The position numbers and the translations under genes were made by a program. This document shows, piece by piece, positions 3,289 to 44,200 of a DNA stretch of 64,000 bases. The stretch's first letter is position 1, and the number at the start of each line of letters is the position of its first letter. The DNA is from Eledone cirrhosa (lineage: Eukaryota): the NCBI GenBank assembly GCA_964016885.1, contig OZ024758.1, positions 22,134,001 to 22,198,000 of the forward strand. Direction: 5' to 3'. The notes under the pieces are model-generated. The model saw only the letters and a list, made by a program, of their open reading frames with translations, was not told the origin of the DNA and made no database searches.

Positions 3289-3290
<2 letters not shown>
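2680..3290 (-). mobile_element. RTE-clade LINE 3' ORF relic
   Basis: [49 protein letters not shown]...RRLRWYGHVMRM...GRPRKTW. It has one in-frame stop and a 21-nt tandem duplication near 3230-3271, and is bounded by TA repeats. Confidence 0.85.
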
Positions 3291-7143
<3,853 letters not shown>

Positions 7144-10916: not shown

Positions 10917-13900
10917 TCATGAGTGCTTCTGTCTTTTCCAAAAGCGTTTCACTTCATCATGACCGTTACGAGCTACAACCATAACCCGTTTGCTTGGTTT
11001 GTCCCAGACTAATACACCAAGATCCTGTAAAACAATATTGAGATGAATAAATGAAGTTTCATATAAACAAGAAAAAAAATATCCAAAAATTCATAATATA
11101 ATTAAGCTATATATATATATATATATGGAGGCACATGGCTTAGTGGTTAGAGCATTGGCCTTGCAATCGAAAGGTTGTGAGTTCAATTCTCAGACCGGGT
11201 GATGTGTTGTTTCCTTGAGCAAGACACTTTATTTCACATTGCTCCAGTTTACTCAGCTGTAGAAATGAGATGATAGGGACTGGGGTCCCTATCATTCCAC
11301 TGCAAAGTGGACGTGTAGGTGCCACGGCAAAAAAGCACCCAGCACTCACTGTAAATGAGGTTGGTGTTAGGAAGGGCATCCAGCTGTAGAAATCAAGCCA
11401 GAATCAGTTCCCGTCTCACTCTTGCAAGCAGGGAAAAGCAGACGTAAAATGAAATGAAAATATATATATATATATATATATTGGAAAATGTGTGAAATCC
11501 TTGGTACAGTTAGGTATATTTGAAAAAGGGAAAAGAATGACTTCACTTGTAGTTCTAAACAATTTGATTTAATTTTATATTATGAGTTACTAGATCTACC
11601 AACTCATCTATATATATAAAATTAAATCAAATTGTTTAGAACTACAAGTGAAGTCATTCTTTTCCCTTTTTTTTATATATATATCATCATATATATACAT
11701 GGTAATGATGGGGGAGGGGGGTATTACTATAAATTAGGGATAACATGGGAGGTGGGGGATATATAAGAACAAAGTAGGGAAACGTGGGGGGATATACAAG
11801 AACAGAGTAGGGAAACGTGGGGGGATATACAAGAACAGAGTAGGGAAACGTGGGGGGATATACAAGAACAGAGTAGGGAAACGTGGGGGGATATACAAGA
11901 ACAGAGTAGGGAAACGTGGGGGGATATACAAGAACACAGTAGGGAAACATGGGGGGATATACAAGAACACAGTAGGGAAATGTGGGGGGATATACAAGAA
12001 CACAGTAGGGAAATGTGGGGGGATATATAAGAACACAGTGGGGAAATGTGGGGGGATATATAAGAACACAGTAGGGAAATGTGGGGGGATATATAAGAAC
12101 ACAGTAGGGAAACGTGGGGGGATATACAAGAACACAGTAGGGAAATGTGGGGGGATATACAAGAACACAGTAGGGAAATGTGGGGGGATATACAAGAACA
12201 CAGGGAAACATGGGGGGATATACAAGAACACAGTAGGGAAATGTGGGAGGATATACAAGAACACAGTAGGGAAACGTGGGGGATATACAAGAACAGAGTA
12301 GGGAAACGTGGGGGGATATACAAGAACAGAGTAGGGAAATGTGGGGGGGATATACAAGAACACAGTAGGGAAATGTGGGGGGATATACAAGAACACAGTA
12401 GGGAAATGTGGGGGGATATACAAGAACACAGTAGGGAAACATGGGGGGATATACAAGAACACAGTAGGGAAATGTGGGGGGATATACAAGAACACAGTAG
12501 GGAAACATGGGGGGATATACAAGAACACAGTAGGGAAATGTGGGGGGATATACAAGAACACAGTAGGGAAATGTGGGGGGATATATAAGAACACAGTGGG
12601 GAAATGTGGGGGGATATATAAGAACACAGTAGGGAAATGTGGGGGGATATACAAGAACACAGTAGGGAAATGTGGGGGATATACAAGAACACAGTAGGGA
12701 AATGTGGGGGGATATACAAGAACACAGTAGGGAAATGTGGGGGGATATATAAGAACACAGTAGGGAAATGTGGGGGGATATACAAGAACACAGTAGGGAA
12801 ACATGGGGGGATATACAAGAACACAGTAGGGAAATGTGGGGGATATACAAGAACACAGTAGGGAAATGTGGGGGGATATACAAGAACACAGTAGGGAAAC
12901 ATGGGGGGATATACAAGAACACAGTAGGGAAATGTGGGGGGATATACAAGAACACAGTAGGGAAATGTGGGGGGATATATAAGAACACAGTAGGGAAACG
13001 TGGGGGGATATACAAGAACACAGTAGGGAAATGTGGGGGGATATATAAGAACAGAGTAGGGAAACGTGGGGGGATATATAAGAACACAGTAGGGAAACGT
13101 GGGGGGATATACAAGAACACAGTAGGGAAACGTGGGGGGGGGGAATATATAAGAACAGAGTAGGGAAACGTGGGGGGATATATAAGAACAGAGTAGGGAA
13201 ACGTGGGGGGGAGATATATAAGAACAGAGTAGGGAAACGTGGGGGGATATATAAGAACAGAGTAGGGAAACGTGGGGGGGAGATATATAAGAACAGAGTA
13301 GGGAAACGTGGGGGGGAGATATATAAGAACAGAGTATGGAAACGTGGGGGGATATATAAGAACAGAGTAGGGAAACGTGGGGGGATATATAAGAACAGAG
13401 TATGGAAACGTGGGGGGATATACAAGAACACAGTAGGGAAACGTGGGGGGGGGGGGGATATATAAGAACAGAGTAGGGAAACGTGGGGGGATATATAAGA
13501 ACAGAGTAGGGAAACGTGGGGGGGATATATAAGAACAGAGTAGGGAAATGTGGGGGGGGGGAATATATAAGAACAGAGTAGGGAAACGTGGGGGGATATA
13601 TAAGAACAGAGTAGGGAAACGTGGGGGGGATATATATAAGAACAGAGTAGGGAAACGTGGGGGGATATATAAGAACACAGTAGGGAAACGTGGGGGGATA
13701 TACAAGAACACAGTAGGGAAACGTGGGGGGGGGGGATATATAAGAACAGAGTAGGGAAACGTGGGGGGATATATAAGAACAGAGTAGGGAAACGTGGGGG
13801 GGATATATAAGAACAGAGTAGGGAAACGTGGGGGGGATATATAAGAACAGAGTAGGGAAACATGGGGGGGGGGGATATATAAGAACAGAGTAGGGAAAAT

Positions 13901-16900
13901 ATGGGAGGTGGAGGATGATTATGGAAGAACAGATTTAGAAATCTTGATTTACCTGAGCATAATCACGGAGAAGTTCAAAGTCACTCTGAGAGAGAAACTG
14001 GTTATAAATTACTCCATCTGTGAATTTAAATCTGTCTCTTTCTAACTCCCACAAGTGTATCTGGTCGGTGACTGTCGGTGGAATTATTGGCATCTGAAAC
14101 AGCAATAAAAATGTACAAGTAATAACATTCTCTGGCAACAACTAAAGTGAAATAATTACCAAAATTATTCAAACCGGCTATATCCGACCATTATTCTCTT
14201 ACTCTTTTCTGTACAAACCCGGCAGATGTTAAGAACAATACCTTAACATCATTATGAGTGGCTGGTTACAGCCGGTTTCGACAGAAAGGGTTAAATATTT
14301 ACACAAAATAACAAAAACATGATGATGATCATCATCACCAGTTAACACCAATTTTCCAAGCTAGCATGGGTTAGACGTGCTGTCCCGTTGTGAGACAGCC
14401 AGCTCAGAGGACTGTGTTTTTCTCACACAGAACTGATCGGGGCTTAGTTTCTACAGCTAGATGATTAGTTAGTATAATTTAATTAATTAATGATGTACCT
14501 TCTCTAGCATCTTTTCATGTGCGTGGCTTCTTAGGAAGTGGATTATCTGTGAAATAAAACAGATGACATATAATAATAATGGTTTCTGATTTAGGCAAAA
14601 AGTCAATTAAATCAACCCCAATACATTACTGGTACTTTATTTTACTGACACCCCGTAAGGATGACAGACAAAGCTAACATCAGCAGGATTTAAACTCTGA
14701 GTGTAACTCTATGCTGCAAAGCATGGTTTAATTAAGGAAGAATTACTTAAGATGACCATTGCGGCCATTAATTAAGGAAGAATTACTTAATGTAAGGTTC
14801 TTTTATAAAACTATGTTGGATGATTTTATTTTAAATTGGAAACCTTTAAAATGGGATAGTTTTATTTCATACAACAGGAGTCAGGTTGGTAACTAAAGGT
14901 TATTACATAAGATTTTAATTTAGATTGGAAACTTTTAAAACAGATAGTTATATTTCATAGAACCAGAGCCAGTTTTGACCGGGTTGGTAACGAAAGGTTT
15001 AAAGAAGATTGAAGCTTAAAGACCATAAGGAGGTCAGCAACAATAAACAAATTAGAAAAACATGAGGTTGAACTCACCTGTTCTGCTGAAATGCCACAAC
15101 TCAATGCTGAGCGTATACTGTCTCTTGTGATCTGACCCACGACCATATTTGGAAACCTGTTGCCCCACAAATAGAATAAATAAATGAAAATATACAAATT
15201 TATGAATAAATTAAATCAAATATATTAAATATGTAAATAAAGGTTACAACCCATGCACGCAAGGAAAAAAACAGGCATAAAAATGATGATGATGAAATAA
15301 CCATAAATTTAAGATTTTTTTTCCATTTCTTTACAATGTTTAATGTCAACATTAACATATTTTGTAAAAATCTAATTACTATGTACCACGAAAAACATGG
15401 TGGTGAGAGCTGACCTCAGATCGCTGAAGCTTATAGAGGAGTTGATGAAGGACCGTGACAAATAGAGAGATCCTGTGCTGAAGAGGACCCACCCTTGCAA
15501 GTAGGGAAAAGTGGATGTAAAATGATGATGGTATAGACATATATATATATATGCCTCTCCTAACCAAATATACACCCCAAACCACTATCCCTACGCCATC
15601 CTCCCACCAACACCACCCTTTCTCTGTAAAGTTATGTTGATACCACAACATCCAGTCCAAACTAAAGTGGTCGTGTAGGTGTCACAACAAAAAAAACACA
15701 CAGTCCACACTGTAATGTGGCTGTGTGGGAAACACGTTCAAAAGGCTCCCAGTCCACACTTTAAATGTGGTTGGTGTTAAGAAGGGCATCCAGTCGTAGA
15801 AAACCTGCCAGATACAGTTCTATACAAGCGAGACATGGTCACCTGATCAATCTTGCCTCAAGTGGGACTATTCCGGTCTAACCCATGCTAGTGTGGAAGA
15901 CAGATGTTAAACGATGATGATGATATATATATATCTTACCTGTAAATCATCTCAGTGAACAGAGCCAATAAGGCTATCTGGAGCTGAGAATCTGAAAAGG
16001 AAGAGAAATAAAAATACACTGAAATAGATTCTGAATGAAACAAATAATAAACAAATCATAATGACCGACTGGAGGGAGTGTTTGAAAACTCTGCCCCCAC
16101 GACCCTCTCAGGAATAAGTGGGCGAAAAAGAAGAAGATTCTAATAGCTCTAAGTTCCCCCAGAAGAAAATGATCAAAGAAACTTACCTGTGTATGCATAA
16201 ACCCTATAATTTGTTTCTACCACAATAAAACCTTGTCTGATTGCGTTGTAAGAGACATGAGATAATCCAGTAGCTAGGTTAATGGCAAGTTTAGTAGGGT
16301 AATATCTCTGAGATTTTCTCTGAAACAATAGTAAAATCAAAAACAACTATTACAAACAAATGGTGTTCATTTTTTTTTTAAAGGGCAGTGGATTGGTATT
16401 ATCGGTAAAGAGTAACTGTGTGCCACAAACAACATGGTTTGTGACACACAGTTACCCTTCTGTGATACCCTTAAACCAACAACTTTTCAGCACCCCAGTA
16501 TATATATATACTTCAATTAATGACCAGATCTACCTATTAGTTAAACCATCCAACATAAACAGAACAGTATATATACATGATACAATACTGGTTCTTTGTT
16601 CCAATTTATTATTATTGATACTCTGCACCCCAAGAATATCGAGTGTTCATCTTGGCATACCACCTACGGATGCAATTCATTTCTACCTCTACAACCTGAT
16701 TAGGTCCTACACTAGTTGAGCGCTTATATGGATTGCCATAGAGAAGTTTCAGAACAGGTCCTTACTGAAAGTCATCCCGATCCAATCTAACTACACTTAA
16801 ATCCGTCTGATTATTCAAAAATATGTAATTAAATATGTATATGATGCAATACTGATTCTTTGTACCCATTAATCCATTAATTATTATTATTATATATACA

Positions 16901-18426: not shown

Positions 18427-21400
18427 TATATACATACATATATATATATATACATACATATATATATACATAGATATATATATCATCATCATCATCATCA
18501 TCATCATCGTTTAACGTCCATCTTCCATGCTTGCATGGGTTTGGACGGGAGTTTTCCCACTTGAGGCAAGATTGGTTGTCTTGCTCATATAGGACTGTCT
18601 GGCGGGTTTTCTACGGCTGGATGCCCTTCCTAACACCAACCACATTTACAGTGTGGAACAGGGAGGTTTTTACCGTGTTACCTACACGGCCACATTACAG
18701 GGTGGACTGTGTGTTTTTTTGTCGTGACACCTACACGACCTTGTTTGTTTCGGGCTGGATGTTGTGGTACCAACATAACTTTACATTGAAAGGGGTGGTG
18801 TGGATGGGGTGGAGGTAGTGGGACGGGGTGTATTTTGTTAGATATATACATATACTCATTCTGTAAATGTGGTTAGTGTTACAAAGGGCATCCAGCCATA
18901 GAAAACCTGCCAGAGACAGTTCTGTGTGAGCGAGACACAGTCTCCTGACCAATATTGCCTCAAGTAGGACAAAATCGTCCAACCCATGCTAGCGTAGAAG
19001 ATGGACGTTAAACAATGATGAAGATTCTATCGAATACATATGTATACTCATTCTATTGAAACATGTTAGCATAGTAAAATGGGATGTGAAAAGTATAGTA
19101 TAGAAATAAGGATTACCTTTCCAAATATTGAAAAACTCAGCTGGAAAAGGAATGACAGAGACTCAACTAAATCCATTCCACGAATCTAGATAACATTAAA
19201 GAAGATATAGCATTGATTATAATAGATGTGAGGTAAAACAGATGTACATATGCTGCAACACTGACTTCTACTGTATATATACATACATGAGTTTGAACAA
19301 TAAATACAGAAGTCAAGTGTAGGTAGAGTTAGTTTATTGTATCCTCCTAATGTTCTTGTGACAAACTTCTGATATTATATTTGTGTTTTAACCTTTATTA
19401 TATACTCTGATGATTCCGGCCTTGTGCTAGGATGAAACAATCGTAAGTGATTAAATGTTTTAAACACTCTTTGATTGTTATTTCTAATGTATATATAGAT
19501 ATATATTGACTAAAATATAGAATTGTTAGACTATGGAAAGGAACAATGCAAATTATGTAGTAAAGCTGACTTACCGCTAGAGTATCTAGGTATTGTAGCA
19601 TAAAGAACCACACTTGCGAAGGGGTGTCCATCAGGAGAAATTGGAAACCATTTGGTGTTATGACGGGTGGGTGTTCTTCTGAGTCACTGAAATATAGAAC
19701 ATTAAACATGAAATAAGAGAGATATCTAGTTTATTTTGTAAATAACATCAACCTTTTAGCATTTACACTACTCTATATATACTATTGTATTTTCACAGTA
19801 AAGGCTTTACCTCACATAACATTTACATTACTCTATATATACTATTGTATTTTCACAGTAAAGGTTTTACCTCACATAATATCTCACATAACATTTACAT
19901 TACTCTATATATACTATTATATTTTCATAGTAAAGGCTTTACCTCACATAATATCAAATCTATGAGATTTTGGTATTATTTATTTTGAAAACAATATCTT
20001 AACATCATACGAGAGACCAGTTACGGTCGATTTGAACAGAAAAAGGTGAGAGAATTCTCGCGGTTTAAATACTCGGGGGTTAATTAATGGTAAAATATGA
20101 AATAGGAGAGATATCTAGTTTGTTTTGAATGGTAAAATATGTCTAAAAAGTGAGAATACATATAAACAACTATCAATATCACGTATGTCTGCTATTATCT
20201 CTGCAAACAAGAGTTGGGTGGGCTGTCACAAACGGGCAGAGCCTTGCACCTCCAAGTGACCCACAGCCCAAGTAGAAGCTACTGACCTCTACAAAGATGT
20301 AAGTACAACATCTTGTTTACATACATCACCACCAGACTCGAACAGCAGTGCTTCCCAAAGTGGGTTCCGCAAAGGAGTGTCTGGGATTCCGTGAAAAAAG
20401 GTAGAGGATTATATTTATATTACAACCATATAACAGTATGTGAAGGCACATGGTTTAGTGGTTAGATCATTGGGCTTGCAATCGAAAGGTTGATGTGTTG
20501 TTTCCTTGAGCAAGACACTTTATTTCACGTTGCTCCAATTTACTCAGCTGTAGAAATGAGATGATAGGACTGGGGTCCCTATCATTAAATCACCCAAGAC
20601 ACCTCCAACGAGGTATACCATGGAGGAGGTCAGTTAAACCTGCATAGGTGTGAGCTGTAACAACGACATATAACAGTATTAGACTTTGGGGTTCTGCCAA
20701 AGGTTTCTGAACCAAAAAAGGTTCCATGTTTGAAAAAAGTTTGGGAAACTCTGTTCTACAGGGTGCACACATTTTGTCATGTCACCAGCATGAGGAAAAA
20801 GCCTTTACTGATGAAATTTAATAGTAAATATAGAGTACTGTAAATGCTAAAGAGTTGAATCTATGATATTTCCTCTGTCTGTCTGTGTCATTACATCCTG
20901 TAAGTTAGTAATTGGACAGAGAGCTATAAATAAATAGCAGACTGAAATATAAGACTGGGGTCGATATGACAGAACAGAAACCCTTAATGGTGATGCTCCA
21001 GCATGGACGCATTCCAATGACTGAAACAAATGTAATTGTTTCTACTTTTGGCACAAGGCCAGCAATTATCGCAGTATTACTGGTACTTTATTTTATCGAC
21101 CCCGTAAGGATGAAAGGCAAAGTTAACCTCGGCGGGATTTCAACCCAGCTCATAAAGGGTGGTAACTCTATGCTTCAAAGTATGGCGTCCGATCCTCTAC
21201 CGATACTGCCAAACAAATATAATACAAAGAAAAAAACACCGACATTTGAGAGATAGATAGAGAGATGCGAGAAGAGACAGATATATATATATATGTATGT
21301 ATGTATGTATACATACATATATATATATATGCGAGAAGTGAAAGAGAAAGAGATATGCGAGAGGCGAGAAAAGAGAGAGAGAGAGAGACTCTGTCAGCCC

Positions 21401-24400
21401 AGCCAAACAGCACACACGACCGTAGCACAACTAAAAACATACAGAATATTCGTCCGCTGCCGCCGAGCTGGCAAAACTAAGGAAGTTTCAGTGTAGCAGA
21501 GAAGGCGCTGTGAATAAGAGAACCGACAGCTACATTATCACACTCAACTTTATTGGCAGAATCCGGTAAAGACAAACGAAATGGAGGAAATGGATACGTC
21601 AGAGACAGACAAAATGAAGCAAGAATCATATAAAAAGGATACGGGAGAGACAAACGAAAAATATGCGTGTATCACGTGTGGGACGGCAATCGTTGAAAAG
21701 AGAAAAACCAAGACGGTTAAAATATCTGTAAGACCTCTCTCTCTCTCTCTCGACACACATATAATATACAGGGTGGTCCGAAAGTCTTGTCACCCCTACA
21801 TATTGTTTTAACTTTCAGTATCGGTAGAGGGTCGAACGCCATACTTTTCAGCATAGTTACGTCCCTTTACGATCTGAGTTCAAATCTCGCCGAGGTTGAC
21901 TTTGCCTTTCATCCTTACGGGGTCGATAAAATAAAGTACCAGTAATACACTGGGATAATTGCTGGCCTTGTGCCTAAAGCAGAAACAATTATTTTTGTTT
22001 TAATAATATAATATATATCGTATCATTAACTATAATATATAATAATTTTAAAGACGTGGTGGGGGGGTGACAAGACTTTCGGACCTCCCTGTACAGGGTG
22101 ACCACAAAACCACTCCTTGATTTCAAATACTTATAATATGAAAACTTAAATGAATATTCTTACAATATTAGTGGCTACAGTTACATAAACTAACAAAGCT
22201 GGTTGATATCATAAACACACGATGTGGTCCCCTTTTGTTGCTCGGCAAATATCAACGTGATAATCAAGCTTGGAGTGTTTTTGTGGTCACCCTATTAATT
22301 AGTAATATTTATTAGTTTGGAGTAGGTTGGGGGAAGTTATAAATTGTGTGGAATTACATTTTCTCTTCCAACTGTTATAAATATTTTCTTTTTCTCTCGT
22401 TACAAAAATGGAAGAAGAAAAAAATAACCGTACAGATATCGTAATTTCAGTGAGATTTACTTCCGCAAATGTCTAATGAACATCGAGTTGGTGTGATCGA
22501 AAGTGGTGGCTAGGTTAGATAGAGGGGTTAATTCAGAAGCATAACTTGGGTAAATAGTAACTCTGGCAAGCAGTGAAATTGCGCCCCTGCCCAACACTGT
22601 ATGGACCTAATAATTTATATAAATGGTTTAATGATCCAGCCACCATAGTGTTCTCAACCATGATAATCAGAGACATATCATACATCTGAAGGATTGTCTT
22701 TTTTCACTCTCCGACGAGGCTGGCCCTAGTTACGGCTCTGGTTTAAGTAAATCTTTGGCACAACGGGTGGAGGATGGCTGCAAGGCCACTAAAAGTCTCC
22801 GCTGTTGTCAGGGCAGGGGATTAGAAGAATTGTTAGAGCGTTGGAAGAAATGCCTCGCCTTATTTTTTACCTTAAAAAGTTGAGTCAGGAACAAAACTGC
22901 GCTGAAAGAAATATTATGTCTAACGCTTAGTCTCCAGCCCCCCCCCCTCCCTGGGCCTTCTTATTGCCCCCGGTGGGGGGGGGTACAGCCCACTTTGAGA
23001 ACCTCTGTTTTAAACCATTAAATGATTCGCCCAAAATACATATACTGACGTGTCGATAGATTATTGATATCCTGGGTCATATTAACTCATGGCCGGGGAA
23101 CTTACGTTTCCAATCGTTTTGGGGGTGGGGGCCAAGCTAAGCTTCTACCCTGTCAGCCGTGTGGATAATAAGGCCCTTTTTATGTTCGTGGCATAGAAAT
23201 GATTATACCTGTAATTAGGCTACCCAGTAGCAACTTTAATAATGCAATATTTTATCCAACGTATATGTACTGAGCAAATACGGAAGTGATATGTAGGTAC
23301 GCGCACAACTAACGACGACAAAAATGTCTCATATCCGTAACCTAGAGTTTTTGGCGCAAATTATATCAAATCTTTAATGGTATTTTTTTTTACAATTACA
23401 CCGGTCTCGCGCTAGATGTTTAATTTGTTTTTCATAAGCTAAGCCAAAAACATGTCCATACGAGCAGGACGTGGTCGCTAAACATTACACACGACCTGGT
23501 TAACCCCGTAATGTGACAACCCTTCTAACCAATGCAAGCATAGAAAATAGACGTTAAACATATATATATCTATCTAATATATATTTGTGAAATGGGTGGT
23601 GGTTGAAATTCAGATGTGCACGGTTAAATGGTAGTAGACGTGGTCGGACGGACATGAACATTTACACACCTATGTAAAAAGTGCCAAGGAAGCAAATAGA
23701 CGAGGTTTCAAATCTCTAACTTGAAAAATGTGGTCCCTAGGGCGTTCTAATACTTGGATGAGTTATTTTCCGTAGTCGCTTTCAATATTCATACAAATTT
23801 TTAAACTCATCAACTTTTTCATAACATATCAAACACAACGTTCTTTCGCTGTTTTTTTTAAAAATATTATTGAAAGTTTATTATAAAGAAGCAGTTTCAG
23901 GAAAAAAAATAAAAATATGCACTTGGGGCTGGACGGCGTACAATGAGAAGTGGGGCGACGTGAAAAGCGTTGTTTATTAACAGCGAAATAGCAATGTCTT
24001 TGAAAATGCAAATTATGAAGGTTTGTTTGATAGTTTACACTTTGATTGCCCTGGTCAGCAAGAGGGGCCTCTATATATATTAGACGTTAACGATCATACA
24101 GTACCGTTTTATGAAATCGATTCTGCAGTACAATTTTACGAAATGCCAAACCGAAAAAGGTTACTGTTTTCTAACAAAAGAAATAAAACCCTTACATTGC
24201 GAACCCCCTGTTCTAATACTGGGGTTAGTTATTTCCCCCTCTTCTAATAAACGTCTAATATATAGAGGCTCAGCTGCTAGTATATATATATATATAATAG
24301 AAAAAGAACCAGGAAGTTTCGTTTACATATAACAAATATTTATTGTGTATCGACCTGTTACGCGCACATCACCAGTCTGACGAGTCGGGTCCATAACTCC

Positions 24401-26915
24401 TGTGGGTTACCTTGAGTCAATCTTCTGCGAAACATGCGTAACAGGTCGATACAAAATAAATGTTTTATATGTCAACGAAACTTCCTCGTTTTTTCCTATT
24501 ATATACACTCTGTCTGTGCATAGTGTTTGATTTGGTACCAACACCAGTATTTCACTGTACTACTCCCACTATATATATATCATCAACGTTTAATGTCCGT
24601 GTTCCACGCTTGCATGGGTTTGGACGGGGGTATTCCCACTTGAGGCAAGAGTGATTGTCTTGCTCGCATAGGACTGTCTGGCAGGTTTTCTACAGTCGGA
24701 TGCCCTTCCTAACACCAACCCCATTTACAGTGTGGGACTGGGAGGTTTTTACCGTGTTGCCTACACGGCCACATTACAGCGTGGACTGTGTGTTTTTTTG
24801 TCGTGACACCTACACGATCTCATTTGTTTCGGCCTGGATGGCGTGGCACCAACATAACTTTACATAGAAGGGGGTGGTGTGGATGGGGTGGGGGTGGTGT
24901 GGACGGGGTGTATTTTGTTAGAGATGCCTACTGGCTGTAGTAGGTTTTACTATGTATTTAGGTAAGGCGGGTCTTCTCTGTTACTGAGTACCGCCAAAGG
25001 TCTCGGTCCAGTATATATATATATATATATATATATTGTACAGCCAACTCCAACATGGATAAACAGATGTGAAAATAGCCACATAATAAACCATCGTCAT
25101 TGTTTAACATCTATTTTTCTACACTAGCATCAGTTAGATGGGTTGTCCTGTTCTGAGACAAGTCAGATCTGATGAGCGTGTCTTGCCCATACACAACTGT
25201 TTCTGGCTTGGCTTCTACAGCTGGATGCCCTTTCTAATGCCAACCACATTTACAGTGAGTACTGAGTGGACTAGGTGCCTTTTATCATGGCACCTATACA
25301 ACCACTTTTACAGTGACCACTTTGTTTTTTGTCAATATAATTAAAAATAAACAAACCTTTGCATGAAAAATTACCTTTTAAACTATATTAATATTAAAAG
25401 TTTTTTTTTCCCCCCACTTCATTTTAGTTACCAAAAAAAGAAATACAACCAGACATAAAACCAACATCTCTTTTTGGAAATAAATCCAAACCTTATGAAG
25501 GTTCTGATGAGGATAGAGATCTTAACCGCATTCTAAGGATACCATGTAAGTCAGTTGAAAGCAAATTTCAGTTGAATGAATGCGAAATTAAGGAAATTAG
25601 TGATGAAATCTACAGAAAAGAAGAATGTTACAAGGTGGCAAATATTTATGATTTATTGGATGTCTACATTGAAAAACAACTTGTATGCTGTGGACACTGC
25701 CATGTAATAGAGAAAGAGGAATGTCTAGACGTTATTGGCTGCTCAGATGGTATACCGGGTTTGAATCCAATATATCTCTTTCAAAAGAAATTAAAATAAT
25801 TATCAATGTTACTACTATTGTTATATTCATCATTGTTGTTATTTATCTTCCAGTGATAACTGTGTATGAAAGTATTATTTTCAATAAAATACTGTTTATA
25901 TATCATCATTATTTTTGCATCCATTTTTTTACATTTGCTTGGGTTGGGTAGGTCCTTTTCAGCACAGCAATTTGCCACTCATCAGGTTCCTTCATGAGTC
26001 TCAGCGATTTCATTTCACCTTTCACCACCTCAGCCCTTGGTTTACCTCTACTGCAACTTCCTACCTTTGGCACTTTTTCACCCAGTGATCATTATCCATG
26101 CACATCACATGCCCATACCAATGCAAACTTCTCTCTTGCACACCACTTCCGATTCCTCTTAAACCCAGTTTCTCCCTCAATTCATCCAAGCTGTGCTGTT
26201 CTCTCACATTTAACCCTTTAGCATGTAAACCAGCTGTATCCGGCCAGAATTCTCTCACCTCTTTCTGTTCAAACCGGCTGTAACCAGCCACTCATACCAA
26301 TGTTAAGGTATTTTTCTCAAAATAAATAATATCTAAATCTCATAGATTCAATATTATGTGACATAATTGTGTAAGGTAATGCCTTACCACCAGCATCATA
26401 TCAGCGTAGAAGATGGACATTAAACAATGATGGTGGTGATGATGATCTTCAATGAAAGTGAAAATTCTTACAAGGCAAAAGACGAAAAATATAGGACTTA
26501 CGCTTTCATGAGACCTGCATGTAGTAACACCCATTTTATGTCCCGGCTAACACAGTCAGATGAGCCAACCATATAGTGAAGAACACACTACAAAATGAAG
26601 GCAATATATATATATATGTGTATGTATGTGTATATATGTAAAAGGTAAACAGCAATAACAACACAGTTGGTACAGTATATAGAAGGATATATCGACAGTT
26701 GACCGACTTTCGTCAAATCAGACCGAACAAACAATGTTTCCATTGGTCTTTCCAAATGCTCATACTATCTATCGGTTGCAACTCCAGGTAGAAGGAACAA
26801 TGTGAAATAAAGTGTCTTGCTCAAGGACATAATGCATCGCCCGGTTCGGGAATCGAATTCTCTAACCACTCAGCCACGCGCCTCCACTGAAGGATATATA
26901 TATATATACACACAT

Positions 26916-35677: not shown

Positions 35678-36275
35678 GATGGAGCCACCCATGTAAACTC
35701 GCATAAGAGTCGGGATCAGTTCGCTTGATCAAACCCGAGCTGATCGATTTTGAAGCAGTGTGTGTGTGTTTATTTCTAGTCTGAGTTTTCTTTAAATTAT
35801 TCAACGTATTTCCACATTAAAATGCGTACTCTGTTTAGATATTTAGTTTCTGACACATGAAAACGAAAACTTCCTTCAAAACAAAGAACACAACACAAAA
35901 TACAGCAACAACAGAATAATATCTTTAAATGAAAAAATTATGTTCAGAAATTTTTTTCAAAAAGCAAAACAAAACAAAATAATAGGTGACTTTCTATATT
36001 AAAAATATTTTTTTAAATTACTAAAATCTATTTAATATGGTTAAAGTTAGATAAGGACCACGTTGGATGTTGTGAAACAATGAAGCTCTTATGAAGAAAA
36101 CCATCACAGCTATTTTGATATGTAAAATAACAAAATCATAAGATATTCACCTGAATACTGCAAGACATGTTGCTGGGTGGTTATAGAGTTTATCGAGAAC
36201 ATTTGCAGGCAAAGTTCGAAGATACCCGTATAGATCTTTGCATTCCAATTTGCATGTCTCCACCGTTGCTGACAT
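10917..36275 (-). CDS. GTF2H4: General transcription factor IIH subunit 4 (p52/Tfb2), 14 coding exons, about 455 aa
   Basis: Exons in transcript order: 36151-36275, 34128-34232, 33054-33185, 32229-32322, 26502-26587, 19575-19686, 19117-19185, 18177-18260, 16187-16319, 15940-15991, 15078-15156, 14499-14546, 13953-14093, 10917-11024. All introns are GT-AG, phases are consistent, total 1368 nt. The translation matches p52 throughout: [124 protein letters not shown]. Confidence 0.97.
11127..11460 (+). mobile_element. tRNA-derived CORE-type SINE with RTE-like tail
   Basis: A box TGGCTTAGTGG and B box GTTCAATTC, a CORE-like segment CCTTGAGCAAGACACTT...CAGCTGTAGAAATG, then GGTTGGTGTTAGGAAGGGCATCCAGC and a GACGTAAAATGA tail. 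A near-identical copy lies at 52541-52870. Partial or variant copies at about 9370, 20444, 32683-32996, 46430, 47215, 47620. Confidence 0.8.
11750..13900. repeat. 33-bp G-rich minisatellite, about 65 copies, in the last GTF2H4 intron
   Basis: Unit GGGAAA(T/C)GTGGGGGGATATA(C/T)AAGAACA(C/G)AGTA with variable G-run length. Confidence 0.97.
16898..17172 (+). mobile_element. RTE-like LINE 3' end fragment, same family as 27003-27385
   Basis: [34 protein letters not shown]...MRDRDRWR, followed by a (TAGA)n tail. Confidence 0.8.
20346..20753. mobile_element. hAT(Charlie)-like non-autonomous element with an internal SINE fragment
   Basis: Imperfect TIRs CAGTGCTTCCCAAAGT ... AGTTTGGGAAACTCTG. The 8-bp flanks match at only 5 of 8 positions. 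Confidence 0.5.
21581..25799 (+). CDS. Putative nested gene: two exons, 172-aa hypothetical protein with CxxC...CxxC
   Basis: Exon 21581-21727 has a GAAATGG start context, reads MEEMDTSE...YACITCG...VKIS and ends at a GTAAGA donor in phase 0. It joins in frame to 25428-25799, which has the acceptor tttttttttccccccacttcattttag and 123 open codons (LPKKEIQ...LVCCGHCHV...KKLK*). AATAAA follows at 25883. Confidence 0.62.
21767..22093. mobile_element. Tc1/mariner-type MITE containing a SINE
   Basis: TA|CAGGGTGGTCCGAAAGTCTTGTCACCC ... GGGTGACAAGACTTTCGGACCTCCCTG|TA, a 27-bp TIR with one mismatch. A SINE lies inside at about 21816-21990. Confidence 0.8.
22092..22296. mobile_element. Second Tc1/mariner-type MITE abutting the first
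   Basis: TA|CAGGGTGACCACAAAACCACTCC ... GGAGTGTTTTTGTGGTCACCCTA, a 23-bp TIR with two mismatches. Confidence 0.75.
24371..24446 (+). ncRNA. Hammerhead ribozyme-like motif of a second family
   Basis: ACCAGT-CTGACGA-G...C-GAAAC-ATGC-GT-A-ACAGGT. Stem I has one mismatch, and stem III is minimal, as in PLE-associated hammerheads. Confidence 0.55.
27003..27385 (+). mobile_element. RTE-like LINE 3' end fragment
   Basis: [13 protein letters not shown]...[12 protein letters not shown]...LLWE...[12 protein letters not shown]...MRNRDRWR...*, followed by a short TAGAA tail. Confidence 0.8.
27385..28753. repeat. Interrupted (TA)n/CA microsatellite
   Basis: Directly visible, with a short unique island at about 28520-28605. 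Confidence 0.97.
28836..28886 (-). ncRNA. Type I hammerhead ribozyme motif, sense within GTF2H4 intron 4
   Basis: Same 51-nt motif on the minus strand. Confidence 0.72.
29804..29854 (+). ncRNA. Type I hammerhead ribozyme motif
   Basis: Same 51-nt motif on the plus strand. Confidence 0.72.
30285..30893 (-). mobile_element. Second copy of the 610-bp RTE-derived element
   Basis: Colinear with 5430-6040 along its full length, with scattered substitutions. Confidence 0.7.
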
Positions 36276-36552
36276 CCTTGTATGTAATTCAATGTAGCAA
36301 GTCCGATGTTGTTGTTGTCTTATTCTCACTAATTACTACACCTTACACACATTATTTACAACACAAACACTAAAAAGTAAATAATATAATATCTTAACTT
36401 TCACAAAAATTATTTCAGATAATTTAGACAAAAGTTTATTTTGTACACGTTAAAAAGAAATAACATAAAGACTGGCTAAATTGTAGATGTAAACCGGTTC
36501 CCCAGTTTCATGTCACTCTTCAGTATCAGAAACTAAATTCAGTATCTCAGTA
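36276..36552. promoter_or_regulatory. Putative bidirectional promoter and 5'UTRs shared by GTF2H4 and VARS2
   Basis: Only 277 bp separate the divergent ATGs (36275 minus, 36553 plus). The interval is free of recognisable repeats in an otherwise repeat-saturated window. Confidence 0.75.
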
Positions 36553-39500
36553 ATGGCTGCTTCCATTCAACATGCCATGCTGTTTTCTCACTCACAATTA
36601 AAAATTAACTCTTGTAGACAAACATTTAATAATTTTACAAATTATCGCTATTACAAATACTCTCAAATTACCAGGAATTGTAGAAAACTCATCCATAGCC
36701 GGGTAACACAACAGAGTCTAACTAGATTTTCCAATGATCTAAATGTACGATATTGCTCAACGGTAAGTGTTTACAAATACAGGTGTATATAAATTGATTA
36801 TTTACTTTTAATAAACATAAATATTTAATACACTGTATACATAAGTATTTACATTTTATTAAATGTAATTATTTTAGCTATCCTTATTTCACAGATATAT
36901 ATTTATTATTTAACATGAATTTACATAGACACAAAAACAAAAACAATATGAACTTTTGTCTGTTTGATTCAAGGACGTTTCTTTTCTTTCGAGTTCAGAA
37001 GATATTTCTAACAAATTCCATCTATGTAAGAGATGTGCAGTGAAGTGGATGAAGGAATCAACAAATCGTACCACTGTCTCATTTTTAATACTCATTAACA
37101 TTGCATTTTCCTTACATTACAAACGTCCTTGAAACAAGTCAGGCGTGTTATTCTATTAATTTCAAGATTTGTGCTTGATCGAAATAAATCACCAGTTTTT
37201 AAATCCAGCTGGTCTTAGCTTTCTCTTTCATCCTTACGGGGGTCGGTAAAATAAAGTACCAGTCACGCACAGGGGTAGATTTAATCGACTTTCCCCTCCA
37301 CCGAAATCATTATCATCATCGTTTCTTATCCCGGTGATGCCCGTGAGGGTACTTGCTTGTTTCTGCGCCTTAGCCTCGCCATCACCTGTGGTAATGCTGC
37401 AAGCGTGTTGACTCGCCCCAAACATTTCCAATGACCCTAGCAGTGTGGTGTGTGACCGATTGAAGAATTTAGTGTTTGAATGGTGGCTTTTTAATATATT
37501 TCTTTCGCTTTAATTAGATATGTTTGTGTATTATATTTATAAGGTTCCTAGCGATAATTAATTGCTTATACATATAAGTGTGTGTGTGTACTTCTAACTA
37601 ATCTTATATATTTGTTATATCAAACATTAATTATAAGAACCAGCCCATTCCCCGCATTTCATGTAGTTTTAGGTTAACCTTTTCAGTATTTATGTGTTGC
37701 TATATTTTATACTTTCTTTGCTTCGAGGCATCTTGTGATATGTTGAATTTTTAATTTCAGGTTGCCAATGACTCAGATACAAATAGCTTTGGCAGTGGTT
37801 TGGTTCCATGGCAGAAAAAAGGTATATATTTTCAGTTTCTTGTGTATGTGTGTGGGCTTATTGTTGGTTGGTTTCAATATAGATATTTTTATTCTTTTTC
37901 ATTCTCTCTGTGCTGTATTCAAATCTGGAGAGGATTGGGCTCTGCTAGGTTTAACCCTTTAGCATTTAAACTGGCTGCATCCGGCCAGAATTTCCCCACC
38001 TCTTTCTGTTCAAAATGGCTGCAACTAGCCGCTTATACTGATGTTAAGGTATTGTTCTCAAAATAAATAATATCAAAATCTCAGATTCGATATAGTGAGA
38101 TAATTATGTGATGTAAAGCCTTTACCGTGAAAATATAATAGTAAATACAGAGTAATGTAAATGTTATGTGAGATAATTATGTGATGTAAAGCCTTTACCG
38201 TGAAAATATAATAGTAAATATAGAGTAATGTAAATGTTATGTGAGATATTATGTGATGTAAAGCCTTTACCATGAAAATATAATAGTAAATATAGAGTAA
38301 TGTAAATGTTATGTGAGATATTATGTGATGTAAAGCCTTTACTGTGGAAATACAATAGTAAATATAGAGTAATGTAAATGTTATGTGAGGTAAAGCCTTT
38401 ACCGTGAAAATACAAAAGTAAATATAGATTAATGTAAATGCCAAAGGGTTAAAAGTGTCCTAGAAACACTATATGTCAATACAGCGCCCCTATGACTCCT
38501 TGAGGAATTATGGGCCCATAGCATGCCATAAACGCACATATGGAGATGATAATTTTTTATATAAATACACTTTGATTTTCTGTTTATTTCCTTATATTTC
38601 AGAAATTACTTGCACTCTTCCTCAAGCATACAACCCAGAGTATGTTGAAGCAACATGGTACAAGTGGTGGCATGAAAAAGGTTTCCACCAGCCACAACCA
38701 ATTCAGGTCTCTAGACTTTTTTTATGTTTAAATTCACAGCTGCACTCAACCTTTCATAATATTTCTTTAAGAAAGGATATCCCAAACCCGGATGCTCATC
38801 AGATCACTGCTTGTCCCAGTTTCATTAGCATTAAGCAACCGACAGGACAAGATTTTCTCGTGGACAGGAACATCATTCCACTGCATGATTAAACCCTGTC
38901 TACTGCTGGTATATATTTCCAGCTGAGTGGACTGGTGCAACATGAAAGGAAGTATTTTGCTGAAGAAGACAACACAACACACAACCCTGTCCAAGAATTG
39001 AAACCACAATATTACAATTGTGTGTCCACACCCTTACCACTAAGGCTATGCACCTTCACAAAATGTGTCCAGTGATTCTTTCCTGAGACATTCTAACCAC
39101 ATGTCCATAGTATCGGAGCTGTGATCTCTCAATTCGGAGAAGTAATGGCTCTACCTGGAGTGACTCTCTGATCTCCGAGCTATGAATCTATCCAGTGATT
39201 CTTTCCTGAGACATTCTAACCACATGTCCATAGTATCGGAGCTGTGATCTCTCAATTCGGAGAAGTAGTGGCTCTACGTGGAGTGACTCTCTGATCTCCA
39301 AGCCACACACTCTATTGAGTAACATTACTCCAAAGACCCTTCAGAGGAATACCATTTCAGCCGCTTGTATTCGCAATCATTTTCTTTCGGTCATTACTCA
39401 AGATTCATACCTTAAGTAAGGGTTGGCACAAATACCGAATTGAGGATAGCGAGGAGAAGTTTGACTTCCTCATACTACTTCTCTCTCTTTACATCTGCTG

Positions 39501-41160
39501 TCTGTGTGAATCTATGTGTAAAAGGAAGGCAAGGGGTAGTGAAAAAACTATGCTGTGTGTTTGTGTAAATGTATGTTTGTGTATTTGTGTGAATGTATGT
39601 GTGTGTTTTTGTAAGTGTGTCTTTGTTTGCACGTTTATGTTTATATACTCAAACATATAAATGCATGCATATGCACATACACATACGCATATACACATAC
39701 GCATCAGTGTATGGAAAAAAATTCTAGTAATTTAAATTTAATTTTTGGGTTTTTTTTCATTTAACTAAAAAAGCCAATAGAATGTTTGAATGTTACATTA
39801 GTTCTTTGATCTGTTGCAGGATGCTGTAAAGATGAGGAGGTTTGTTATCTGTTTACCACCTCCTAATGTCACTGGTTCCCTTCATCTTGGTCATGCTTTG
39901 ACGTGCTCCATTCAAGATGCTATTGTCCGTTGGTAAGTCTTTATACACTCTTTGATCTGGGTATCAGTGGTAGAGCTGCTCCCACGATAAAATACACCCA
40001 GTACACTCTGTAAAGTGGTAGAGCTGCTCCCACAGTAAAATGCACCTAGTACACTCTGTAAAGTGATAATGCTAGTGCCACAATAAAATGCACCCAGTAC
40101 GCTCTGTAAGTGGTAGTGCTAGAGTCACAATAAAATGCACCCAGTACGCTCTGTAAGTGGTAGTGCTAGAGTCACAATAAAATGCACCCAGTACACTCTG
40201 TAAGTGGTAGTGCTAGTGTCACAATAAAATGCACCCATTACACACAAAGGCTCAGCAGGCCAGTGTTTATCTCGGGTTATATGGCATAAAGCAATTGAGT
40301 ACAATACCCCCACTTCCATCCTGGACAAGTCGCCAGTCCATCGCAGGGTTAAACTCCCAGATATTGCTGGTACTCTTTTTCTACTGAGTATACTAGAGCA
40401 ACGCAAAATGAAGTGTTTTGCTCAAGAACACAACACGTAACCTAGTCCAGGAATCAAATCCACAACATTATGATCGTAAGTCTAATACTCTTACCACTAG
40501 GCCACATGGTTCCACATCTTTCAGGAATCAATAACATAAGCATCTGCCAATTTCTTCTATAATCAAATACTCTCATCACCCAAACTTTTGTAACCCTGTG
40601 CCTGTCTTAGAAATAATATATTGCATAAATTAATAAAGATATCTAAGACAGGCACATTTTTTTTTATTTTTAACCCTTTAGCATTTAAACTGGCTGTATC
40701 CAGACAGAATTTCCTCACACCTTTCTGTTCAAACTGGCTGTGACCTGCCACTCATACTTATGTTATGTGCGATATTATGTGAAGTAAAGCCGTTACCGTG
40801 AAAATACAATAGTATATATAGAGTAATGTAAATTTTTTTAATTTTTAAACCTCCCAATAATAGCTTATTTCCCTGGTCTACTCTATAGGAACCGAATGCA
40901 AGGACACCAAGTACTTTGGGTGCCAGGACTTGACCATGCAGGCATTGCAACTCAAGTGATTTTTGAGAAATGGTTATGGCAGAAGAAGGGCTGCACAAAG
41001 CATGATATTGGCAGAGAGAAGTTTCTAGAAGAAATATGGAAATGGAAAGAGGAGTAAATAATACTTTAAATTGTCAAATCCTTATTTCAATGTTGAAGTC
41101 TTTGTTGTTAAGTGCTCTCAGGTCTCAAATATGATATATATTATCATCACCATTTAACAC

Positions 41161-41209
<49 letters not shown>

Positions 41210-44200
41210 TAATCATCATCATCATTTTACGTCTGCTTTTCCCGGCTTGCATACACATAAATATATGTACACACACACACAAATATATATATTATATGAA
41301 GTATAATATACAGTATATAGAATATACTCATTAAACTACAAACGAAATTCTGACTGTTTGGACTATTTGAAGAGTTATCAATGTTGACACTTATTATTTC
41401 TGTGACAGAAAAGGAGACTTAATTTATGAACAAATGAAGAGACTGGGTGCCTCACTTGACTGGACAAGACAGTCTTTTACAATGGATAAGGTAAGAGACA
41501 TTGATATATAATGACAGTCGTGGTGGTCGTAGTTCTCTTGACTAGTGGTGGTGGTGGTGGTAGCAGCAGCCCTGGTGATGATTGTTGGGGGGTTGTAACG
41601 ATGGTGATGATGGTAGTGGTGGGGGCAACAGTCCTGGTGATGATAGTAGGGTTTTGGTTCTGTCAGTGGTAGTGGTGGTGGTTGCAGTCCTGGCAATGAT
41701 TTGGGTTATAGTTCTGACAGTGGTGGTGGAGGCAGTCATAGCAATGGTTGGGATTATAGTTCTGTCAGTGATGGAGGTGGTGGTGGCAGTCCTGGACAGA
41801 ATGCCAGTCCATTGCAGGTTTAAACTCCAACCACTACTGGTGCTAATTTTCATCAGAGTAGATTTGGAGCAATGTGAAATGAAATGTTTTGTCGCCCAGT
41901 CCAGGAATCAAACCCACAACCTTATGATCCCGAGCCCAACATTCTAGCCACTAGGCTGTACCTTCACTCGACCCTACATCATCTCCATTAGATCACCAAC
42001 CAGTCCTCTGAATGTATTGGGTACATTTTACTGTGGCACTAACACCAAGTAATTCACCTTGCCCCTACATGTCAAAAGAATTCGCTCCACTTTCTTCTAC
42101 ATTTATCTTCCCCTGTAATTTTTTCCTCAATTGTTTTCTTTGGTTCATTTTAGAATCTTTCCAGAGCCGTTAATGAAGCTTTTGTTAGGCTTCATGATGA
42201 GGGCTTAATATATCGTCACAAGGGTTTAGTCAACTGGTCTTGTGTTCTTAAGTCAGCCATTTCTGATATTGAGGTAAGTAAGGTTTTTTGTTTATCCTGC
42301 TTGGTTCATTTTTTAAGAAAATTTCCTAAACTTTTCTTAACCCTTTAGCATTTAGATTACTTTATATTTACTATTGTATTTTCATGGTAAGGGCATTACT
42401 TCACATAATTATCTCACATAATATCGAATCTGAGATTTTGATATTTATTTTGAGAACAATACCTTAACATCAGTATGAGCGGCTGGGTACAGCCAATTTG
42501 AACAGAAAGAGGTGAGAGAATTCTGGCCAGATACGGCTACTTTAAATACTAAAGGGTTAAACAATCTGTCTTACCATCGTGTGTTGTGTATTGGCAGAAT
42601 CGGTAGAGAGTCAGTTTTTTTACTTTTTACTGCCTGATGAGGTCAAAAGTATTTCCAAAACATGAAGGTGCTGCATGGCTCTTTCAGTGTGCACAACAAA
42701 TGCAGCACCATCAGTGAACAGAAGTTCTTCTGTAGTCTTTCTTGGTGTGTACCTGCAACAACCAGACCCTCTTCCCACCCCCTTCGTCCTCTTACAGGTC
42801 TTTCATGGATCGTTTCAGCAACATCATAATCATGATTGTGGTTTTAATGTCCACTTTCTCTGCTAGCAAGGGTTGGACAGGCCGACATAGACCAAGTCAG
42901 TACTGAAGCAGGGGTCACTGATCTCCCGGATAGGCCAGGGATCTGCATCTCACTTATGAACGGCTTCATGTTCTACCGTACCAAGTACACAGAAGAGGTT
43001 GGCAAGCTTTGAGAACAGGGTCAGGGCAAGAACACAACTTTACTTCTTCCCATTGGTGATTTAGAAGGGCTGGGACAGGTCGTTCCCAAGTCTGATTTGA
43101 CCAAGTTGGATACTATGTCGAACGCTTTGATCAAATCAACAAAGTGATGAATATGTGCACCTTTTAATAAAACATCTTCAGGTAGTTTGATATCAAAATG
43201 TTTAACCGTTTAGCTACCATACATGAAATCTTTAAATTTTACTTTTCAGATTGAAATGTTGCCTTTAAATGGGAAAACCAAGCTAGAAGTTCCTGGTTAT
43301 GGAAAGAAAGTGCAGTTTGGAACACTAACATCATTTGCATATCCTGTTATAGGAACTGGTAAGTCTTGTAAAATACTTCATGCATATTCCTTCTGAGTTA
43401 GAATAATTGTGAAATTAAGATTGAGTGAGGAAGTTTTCTTATTAATTAGAAGTAATAGGAAACATTTCCAGTCCTTTCCAGGTAGAATTGATATAGTTCT
43501 TTGTCTTATCATGTCCACCTTGTGGTGGTGACAGGATTAGCAGTATCTTATCAAATCTCCCAGGGCCATGGCATGGATGCTCCTAACTTTAACCCATTTC
43601 TGACCATACTTCTAATGAGTCTTCTTCAGTTATCCTTCCTTCAAAGGTTAAGCATTCATTTTGTTATTTCTAAAAAAAGCACCCAGTCCACTCTGTAACG
43701 TAGAGACCATTTTGTTTTTTCTAAAAAAAAGCACCCAGTCCATCTAGTCAACCCAGTAACATAGAAACCAAATCAAAATATACTTGTTATTGTTGTTTTC
43801 TGTCTTTACAGATGAAAAAGTCATTGTAGCCACCACACGTCCTGAAACAATATTTGGTGATGTGGCTGTCGCTGTACATCCTCAAGATTCACGTTACCAA
43901 CATCTCCATGGAGCTTTACTTCAACATCCATTTTCAGATCGGAAAATTCCAGTCATTGCTGATGAGTTTGTTGACAAAGATTTTGGCGAAGGTTCAATCT
44001 CTTTCTTCTCCCATCTCTCTCCTCCTCTCTCTCTTTACCCTCTCTTTCTTCTCCCATCTCTCTCTCTTCACCCTCTCTTTCTTCTCTCATCTTTCTCTAC
44101 CCTCTCTTTCTTCTTTCATCTTTCTCTCATCTTTCTCTATCTCTTTCTTTTCCCATCTCTCTCTCTCTCTCTTCACCCTCTCTTTCTTCTCTCATCTTTC

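What the first reader, a model, noticed from the sequence alone, without database searches (positions are those of the whole stretch)
21330..25890. Probable unrecognised gene nested antisense in GTF2H4 intron 5, encoding a split CxxC...CxxC protein
Seen: a CpG-retaining, GA-repeat-rich promoter-like stretch (about 21250-21580); an ATG in good context at 21581; a canonical phase-0 donor at 21727; a strong polypyrimidine acceptor at 25427; 123 open codons in AT-rich DNA; and AATAAA about 85 nt after the stop. The 172-aa product has CITC in exon 1 and CCGHC in exon 2. That pattern recalls treble-clef or ZAD-like zinc domains, with an atypically long spacer. I do not recognise the family. The ORF track shows only disconnected pieces. 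Inference: a lineage-restricted or transposon-derived small zinc-binding protein. Additional internal exons cannot be excluded.
Basis: partly seen in the sequence, partly recalled or inferred. Interest (0 to 1): 0.75.

Follow-up and report, generated by a model that had tools for sequence, protein, structure and literature searches.

The report
Hidden RABIF paralog inside GTF2H4 intron
Inside an intron of the GTF2H4 gene of a likely octopus genome, on the opposite strand, lies a small, likely spliced and transcribed gene whose protein is likely a far-diverged copy of the Rab-protein chaperone RABIF/MSS4, missed by standard searches and predicted to have changed its binding partners.

Summary
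The gene model holds: ATG 21581, phase-0 GT..AG intron 21728-25427, stop 25799, AATAAA 25883, 172 aa, inside GTF2H4 intron 5 on the other strand. One run that behaves as RNA covers both exons and ends 20 nt after AATAAA; the splice joint itself was not seen. Pfam, three large protein searches, the Atlas and PDB give no usable hit. The product is nonetheless most likely a far-diverged paralog of RABIF/MSS4, not a ZAD-like or transposon-derived protein. Its intron falls 16 codons after the first CxxC, exactly as in the genome's own RABIF and in 7 of 11 other Mss4 loci. Five Mss4 blocks align in order (0-1 of 1000 shuffles). The loop after the splice site matches only the two octopod RABIFs. The long spacer is an insertion in the family's variable loop. 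Near-invariant Mss4 residues (F-x-N-x-G-F; D, E, G-P after the second CxxC) are replaced, so ordinary Rab holding is doubtful. Against: identity is about 24%, hhalign and both fold predictions gave nothing, no ortholog was found, and the C-terminal register is ambiguous. New variant of a known kind; interest 0.5.

The parts
21253..21397 (.). GA/TA microsatellite stretch upstream of exon 1; promoter-like region, start site not mapped
   Evidence: CpG o/e 1.02 over 21250-21580
21414..21727 (+). Exon 1 (5' end approximate): 5' UTR and CDS 21581-21727, 49 codons, with the first CxxC (C30 at 21668, C33 at 21677)
   Evidence: X4 contig 21414-21713; ATG and donor; single copy
21728..25427 (+). Single phase-0 GT..AG intron, 3700 nt, repeat-rich; donor 16 codons after C33, the RABIF position
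   Evidence: joint itself not seen
25428..25908 (+). Exon 2: CDS 25428-25799 (123 codons and stop) and 3' UTR to about 25908
   Evidence: X4 contig 25433-25908 with 3 further letters that do not fit; single copy
25428..25508 (+). Residues 50-76: loop that aligns without gaps to the loop of octopod RABIF (8 of 27 identical)
25509..25613 (+). Residues about 77-111: insertion of about 35 residues relative to RABIF
   Evidence: no internal repeat found
25623..25673 (+). Residues 115-131: best Mss4-like block; first half conserved, F-x-N-x-G-F replaced
   Evidence: 0-2 of 1000 shuffles; column table
25686..25703 (+). C136-C137-G-H139-C140-H141: likely second zinc knuckle (C137/C140 preferred; C148/C154 is the other register)
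25883..25888 (+). AATAAA polyadenylation signal, 20 nt before the end of the X4 contig at a CA
19687..26501 (-). Host intron: GTF2H4 intron 5 (numbering counts coding exons seen in the window)
   Evidence: X4 joint 19686-26502; PF03849 exons; in-frame join
19575..19686 (-). GTF2H4 exon 6
26502..26587 (-). GTF2H4 exon 5 (outer border approximate)

Best explanation
This is a two-piece open reading frame nested antisense in GTF2H4 intron 5, likely spliced and transcribed from its own promoter, that likely arose as a DNA-level duplicate of RABIF/MSS4 in the cephalopod or octopod line and is predicted to fold as a zinc-bound Mss4-type beta domain that would now hold a different client than the Rab8/Rab10 group. 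Shown: the frame, the splice signals, the nesting, single copy, cover of both exons in an RNA-like run, the shared intron position, the ordered blocks, the replaced residues. Inferred: the splice itself, translation, descent from RABIF (about 0.85), duplication through DNA rather than RNA (the ancestral intron is kept), selection on the frame, zinc binding by C30/C33/C137/C140, and a changed client (about 0.7 given descent). The most likely way of working is that of a small rigid holdase or adaptor: it grips an exposed strand of a partner, as MSS4 does with nucleotide-free Rabs, with a reshaped surface and a long flexible acidic loop.
For: Intron 16 codons after the second Cys of the first CxxC, phase 0, in this gene, in the genome's own RABIF on contig C4 and in 7 of 11 metagenome Mss4 loci that hold that exon (5 distinct; 3 are intronless there, 1 differs; 9 of 20 loci lacked the exon); chance about 1 in 170 to 1 in 500 (my estimate from 171 codon borders, 3 phases), and found after the family was chosen. 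Five ungapped Mss4 blocks placed in family order: reached by 0, 1 and 1 of 1000 shuffles (free, four Cys fixed, all Cys fixed). Own profile of 40 rows: 11.3 bits, 2 of 3000 free shuffles, 5 and 0 of 3000 with Cys fixed. Pairwise to own RABIF: 0 and 4 of 1000 shuffles, against 132-785 of 1000 for four Yippee/Mis18-type frames of the same genome, none with GT at +16. Loop after the splice site: 1 and 4 of 5000 shuffles for the two octopod RABIFs, 487-3943 of 5000 for the other 20 rows. Neutral decay of RABIF to 25-35% identity left no stop in 0-2 of 2000 runs. Changed surface: L125, D127, Y129, I130, H139, H141, I143, E144, E146 occur in 0 of 25-27 family rows.
Against: Pfam Mss4 does not match either exon and the genome-wide PF04421 search did not list this locus. 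blastp to own RABIF gives E 0.049 and, at standard gap costs, 58 of 2000 shuffles reach the score. hhalign probability 1.3%. The second stretch found by my profile is a repeat match to the first CxxC, not in order. The two C-terminal blocks alone are no better than shuffles (433-510 of 1000), and two registers compete. No DNA-level likeness to RABIF (457 and 119 of 500). The acceptor lies two codons further on than in the family. AlphaFold of exon 2 is not confident, alone (pLDDT 35.5) or with 11 Mss4 rows (40.6). The family was picked by eye from recall before testing. The loop test favours long loops, since shorter loops run into the next motif. Some 'invariant' columns are forced by my anchors. 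No ortholog was found. The splice joint was not seen, and the RNA evidence is one run of one study whose kind is not on record.
Confidence: 0.6

Rival explanations
1. Same origin, but the protein still works as an ordinary Rab holdase for Rab8/Rab10/Rab3-type GTPases, as a second, perhaps tissue-limited, RABIF.
For: N121-I122-Y123 are conservative forms of the family's D-M-F (seen in 3, 2 and 6 of 25 rows; one plain member, L019, has the same three); that this is the 'helical turn' needed for Rab binding is recalled, and only the title of Zhu 2001 was seen (reference list of PMC6767298). Four Cys are in place.
Against: F-x-N-x-G-F and the D, E, G-P, G after the second CxxC are replaced, though invariant in alignment A1; in the preferred register the hairpin before the second CxxC is about 5 residues shorter. 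A normal RABIF is present.
Confidence: 0.17
2. A real protein-coding gene unrelated to RABIF: a de novo, transposon-derived or ZAD/treble-clef-like zinc protein; the Mss4 likeness is chance.
For: No standard search links it to Mss4; exon 1's best Pfam hints are GFA E 0.0035, CpG_bind_C 0.012, DUF7576 0.03, all under their cut-offs.
Against: It needs three separate coincidences: intron position, block order, octopod loop. No zf-AD or transposase family; single copy; the inverted pair that flanks the gene is a common repeat with about ten near-full copies in the window.
Confidence: 0.12
3. A transcribed but dead or dying duplicate, or a non-coding antisense RNA that acts on GTF2H4 by transcriptional interference; the frame is a relic.
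For: No ortholog found; key residues lost; low Atlas recognition (1481 and 1811); one amino-acid-changing variant in exon 1.
Against: 172 open codons at about 24% identity to RABIF (17 of 72) where neutral decay gives 6-7 stops; first ATG used, stop in the last exon, poly(A) signal in place.
Confidence: 0.06
4. The two covered pieces are not joined as modelled: further exons lie in the repeats of the intron, or another acceptor is used.
For: Joint not listed; the X4 contig starts at 25433, not 25428; further AG at 25440 and 25452.
Against: Those acceptors are out of frame; unique intron pieces have thin cover in X4; the direct join reproduces RABIF's two-exon layout.
Confidence: 0.05

Closest known systems
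RABIF/MSS4 (Pfam PF04421; PDB 1HXR, 1FWQ, 2FU5; own-genome copy L004+L003; Argonauta hians P0001)
   Same: Two exons with a phase-0 intron 16 codons after the first CxxC; CxxC, L-P, long variable loop, aromatic-x-V-x-[DN]-[MI]-[FY] block, second CxxC, short last strand, in this order; small size (172 against 149 aa).
   Different: About 24% identity in the alignable blocks; insertion of about 35 residues; acceptor two codons later; F-x-N-x-G-F and D/E/G-P/G replaced; extra Cys and His around the second knuckle; not detected by PF04421; other chromosome; nested antisense.
Other Mss4-like fold proteins (Yippee/Mis18 PF03226, GFA/CENP-V PF04828, cereblon CULT)
   Same: Two distant CxxC pairs that bind one zinc in a beta-rich domain (fold kinship recalled); exon 1 has a weak GFA hint.
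   Different: Own-genome members do not align above shuffles and lack the intron position; no GFA match over the cut-off in this genome.
Nested intronic genes in animals
   Same: [quoted passage not shown]
   Different: This one keeps the parent's intron, so it is likely a DNA-level copy and not a retrogene.
ZAD / treble-clef zinc domains
   Same: CxxC...CxxC layout only.
   Different: No zf-AD match; no C2H2 array; the ordered blocks and the intron point elsewhere.

Membership tests
Mss4/RABIF (PF04421) | Pfam profile score over the curated cut-off (22.6 bits) | tested here: not met
   No Mss4 row for either exon; locus absent from the genome-wide search. Own RABIF exon 1 alone also stays under the cut-off (18.2 bits). 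The spliced product was not scanned against Pfam as a whole.
Mss4/RABIF (PF04421) | Two CxxC pairs at the family's places | tested here: met
   C30/C33 align without gaps; C137/C140 is the best place for the second block; a second register would put V151 at the first Cys.
Mss4/RABIF (PF04421) | Conserved blocks in family order | tested here: met
   0-1 of 1000 shuffles; carried by the N-terminal three blocks.
Mss4/RABIF (PF04421) | Ancestral phase-0 intron 16 codons after the first CxxC | tested here: met
   acceptor two codons later than in 14 of 14 family rows with an L-P (3 of them intronless)
Mss4/RABIF (PF04421) | Near-invariant F-x-N-x-G-F and C-A-D-C-[ED]-x-G-P-x-G residues | tested here: not met
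Mss4/RABIF (PF04421) | Mss4 fold (three beta sheets, one zinc) | tested here: inconclusive
Mss4/RABIF (PF04421) | Binds and stabilises nucleotide-free exocytic Rabs | not testable with these tools
   Function of the family from passages of PMC6767298 and PMC9582623.
Yippee/Mis18, GFA | Profile or pairwise match; shared intron | tested here: not met
   L032 and L033 are single exons and the L031 row missed the true domain, so the test is partial
ZAD (zf-AD) / treble clef | Pfam match | tested here: not met
   (exons scanned apart)
ZAD (zf-AD) / treble clef | Treble-clef fold with long C-terminal helix | tested here: inconclusive
   low-confidence models
Transposon-derived gene | Related copies in the genome, transposase match, terminal repeats with target duplication | tested here: not met

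The most novel reading that the evidence does not exclude
Octopods have an undescribed second Mss4-fold protein, born from RABIF, kept by selection and changed beyond the reach of Pfam, HMMER and language-model searches, that chaperones or regulates a new client (a cephalopod-specific Rab set or a non-Rab partner) in vesicle traffic; its descent is readable only from gene structure.
Probability: 0.35. Interest if true: 0.7.

Novelty: new variant of a known kind. Interest (0 to 1): 0.5.

Why it matters
RABIF/MSS4 is, from recall, a single-copy gene in most animals, and whether it is an exchange factor or a chaperone has long been argued (passages of PMC9582623). A natural paralog that keeps the zinc knuckles and the D-M-F-like turn but drops the rest of the conserved surface is a ready-made test of which residues give Rab holding, and of what else the fold can do. 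It is also a clean example of an apparent cephalopod orphan gene that is really an old duplicate, recognised by intron position after every standard search failed. The nesting itself is ordinary.

Tried and rejected
Run search listed no RNA holder on record; not used as evidence. Protein searches with exon 2: 0 hits among 1 candidate (67-216 aa), 0 among 78 (217-2000 aa), 0 in 1.84 billion representatives; exon 1 was not searched in these three. The control with RABIF exon 2 gave only 10 candidates and one cephalopod, so these blanks are weak. Atlas: no usable hit for exon 2, hits of 0.86-0.87 only for exon 1. PDB sequences: one chance row, none. hhalign negative. AlphaFold of exon 2 alone and with family rows, and Foldseek, uninformative. 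Complex prediction of the two exon products with zinc: no verdict, score 0.02. DNA-level likeness to RABIF and an internal tandem duplication as source of the insertion: not found. Pack-type transposon capture: rejected, the flanking inverted pair is a common repeat. Paralogs in the own genome: L028/L029 and L005/L006 are stop-ridden chance matches; no third RABIF copy. The third row was one residue out of register and is replaced. RING/SP-RING, RPB10 and Churchill likenesses were considered by eye from recall and not tested. Earlier findings: none in three look-ups. The primary papers on the MSS4-Rab8 structure and on holdase function were not held; a search for residue-level data found nothing relevant.
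Full report
Setting. The window lies on contig C19 of a 3.0-Gb genome. The genome's RABIF is 121 of 149 residues identical to that of Argonauta hians, so the animal is likely an octopod. GTF2H4 runs on the minus strand (PF03849 matches six stretches; further exons read by eye). The finding lies between exons at 26502-26587 and 19575-19686, which join in frame.

The observation. All stated signals are present: first ATG at 21581, 49 codons, GT at 21728, polypyrimidine AG at 25426-27, 123 codons, TAA, AATAAA at 25883; 172 aa. The frame is far beyond chance: 0 of 5000 for exon 2 from the acceptor under two nulls, 0 and 8 of 5000 for the spliced ATG frame. Both exons are single-copy as protein and as DNA. 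CpG is kept around exon 1 (o/e 1.02-1.32, top 2-10% of 202 tiles).

Transcription. Four runs of one study hold exon 2; none is on record as RNA. X1-X3 behave as DNA: their contigs cross the exon borders (21398-21790, 25239-26095). X4 behaves as RNA: it holds the GTF2H4 joint 19686-26502 with splice ends and a 923-nt contig of which only exon 6 lies here. In X4 the contigs 21414-21713 and 25433-25908 cover the two exons; the second ends at a CA 20 nt after AATAAA with three letters that do not fit. Their depths are 72.6 and 84.1, against 3-4 for unique intron pieces; the tool warns that contig depth cannot rank genes, so I take this as a hint only. The joint 21727-25428 was not listed in either call (313 joints hidden; none dropped). 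A variant at 21714, 14 nt before the donor, and the microsatellite just after the donor may break or hide the short joint contig; that is inference. Contigs show no strand.

What standard searches say. Nothing: Pfam under cut-off only, 5.8-billion and 1.84-billion protein searches empty for exon 2, Atlas and PDB empty or chance. The control shows that the word search is shallow: RABIF exon 2 drew 10 candidates and a single cephalopod.

The RABIF lead and its tests. The motif layout recalled Mss4/RABIF; this lead came from memory and was then tested. A normal two-exon RABIF lies on contig C4. (a) Gene structure: its phase-0 donor is 16 codons after the second Cys of the first CxxC; so is the donor of this gene; so is a GT in 7 of 11 metagenome Mss4 loci that hold that exon (three of the seven are near-identical; three loci are intronless, one differs; 9 of 20 lacked the exon). 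The acceptor here lies directly before L-P, two codons later than in the family. (b) Sequence: local alignment to own RABIF is reached by 58, 14 and 4 of 2000 shuffles as gap extension is eased; a profile of 11 rows gives 15 of 3000, one of 40 rows 2 of 3000, 5 and 0 of 3000 with Cys held fixed. Five ungapped blocks (34 rows after dropping 6 near-duplicates; 15-27 rows a block) fall in family order at residues 25, 50, 115, 133 and 164, reached by 0-1 of 1000 shuffles; the last two blocks alone are at chance. (c) Lineage: the 25 residues after L-P match the loop of the two octopod RABIFs (1 and 4 of 5000) and none of 20 other rows (487-3943), though shorter loops are at a disadvantage. Identity over the three alignable blocks is 17 of 72 to both octopod proteins. 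(d) Specificity: four Yippee/Mis18-type frames of this genome give 132-785 of 1000 and no GT at +16, own RABIF 0-4 of 1000 (partial, mostly single exons). (e) Selection: substitution-only neutral decay of RABIF to 25-35% identity left no stop in 0-2 of 2000 runs and all four Cys in 3-15 of 2000.

Results against. PF04421 misses the locus; blastp E 0.049; hhalign 1.3%; no DNA likeness; AlphaFold of exon 2 stays at pLDDT 35-41 even with family rows; Foldseek finds nothing. The C-terminal third can be read in two registers: C137/C140 as second knuckle with a shortened hairpin, or residues 138-160 ungapped with three Gly/Leu matches but V151 in place of a Cys. No ortholog is in hand.

How it likely works. 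MSS4 is a rigid three-sheet domain with one zinc; it binds switch I and the interswitch of nucleotide-free Rab8, one loop is largely disordered and another binds Rab8 (passages of PMC6767298); recent work treats it as a chaperone that keeps Rab8, Rab10 and Rab35 from degradation (passages of PMC9582623; PMC5902227). That the disordered loop is the one carrying the insertion here, and which residues touch the Rab, is recalled or inferred: the primary papers were not held. The product keeps four Cys, L-P, and a conservative form of D-M-F, but replaces F-x-N-x-G-F and D/E/G-P/G, which are invariant in alignment A1. I therefore read it as a stable zinc-bound Mss4-type module whose binding face has been rebuilt: a holdase or adaptor with a changed client (0.6), less likely a second ordinary Rab holdase (0.17), an unrelated orphan (0.12), a relic (0.06) or a wrong exon model (0.05). 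The kept intron argues for duplication through DNA; no link of function to GTF2H4 is implied.

Known or new. By origin it likely belongs with RABIF; by the family's profile and invariant residues it fails membership, so I file it as a new variant, not a member. Searches of the held papers found none with GTF2H4 and 'nested gene', one irrelevant paper with MSS4 and octopus, none on a RABIF paralog among 15 listed of 23 (titles and abstract starts only) and none with the nested-gene and cephalopod terms. (listing only) was not followed up; gene tables in supplements of cephalopod genome papers were not read and may already list this gene as uncharacterised. Nested genes are common (listing and abstract starts of PMC13309782 and PMC11694760).

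Verdict. Observation confirmed; interpretation partly supported; likely a hidden, fast-changed RABIF paralog. Interest 0.5.

Noticed in passing
window 36200-55500: GTF2H4 (minus) stands head to head with a class I tRNA synthetase gene on the plus strand (tRNA-synt_1 and Anticodon_1), likely VARS2. From recall, human GTF2H4 is the neighbour of VARS2 in the MHC region; the link may be ancient.
   Followed up: partly
window 22871-23258, minus strand: X4 holds a contig that splices this intron stretch to GTF2H4 exon 6 (joint 19686-22871, depth 4): a cryptic exon or recursive splice inside the intron of the nested gene.
   Followed up: partly
window 21017-21208 and 21816-22007: Two inverted copies of a common repeat (86-91% complementary) flank exon 1; in either pre-mRNA context they could pair, a possible target of RNA editing, which is recalled to be heavy in cephalopods.
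   Followed up: no
window 21714: C>T variant in X2 and X3 but not X1 of the same sample: likely heterozygous, changes codon 45 from Thr to Met.
   Followed up: partly
window 25433: The X4 exon-2 contig starts 5 nt inside the exon, at a run of seven A; unexplained (slip in the A run or a variant).
   Followed up: no
window 21767-22093 and 24303-24494: Short elements with terminal inverted repeats (97% and 82-89%), MITE-like.
   Followed up: no
window 11690-13960: A long tandem array in a GTF2H4 intron gives open frames of over 700 codons on the minus strand; repeat-made, not a gene.
   Followed up: no
L030 (G000:C20) 1450-1827 minus: A Yippee-like (YPEL) frame of 126 codons that holds both CxxC in one exon.
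   Followed up: no
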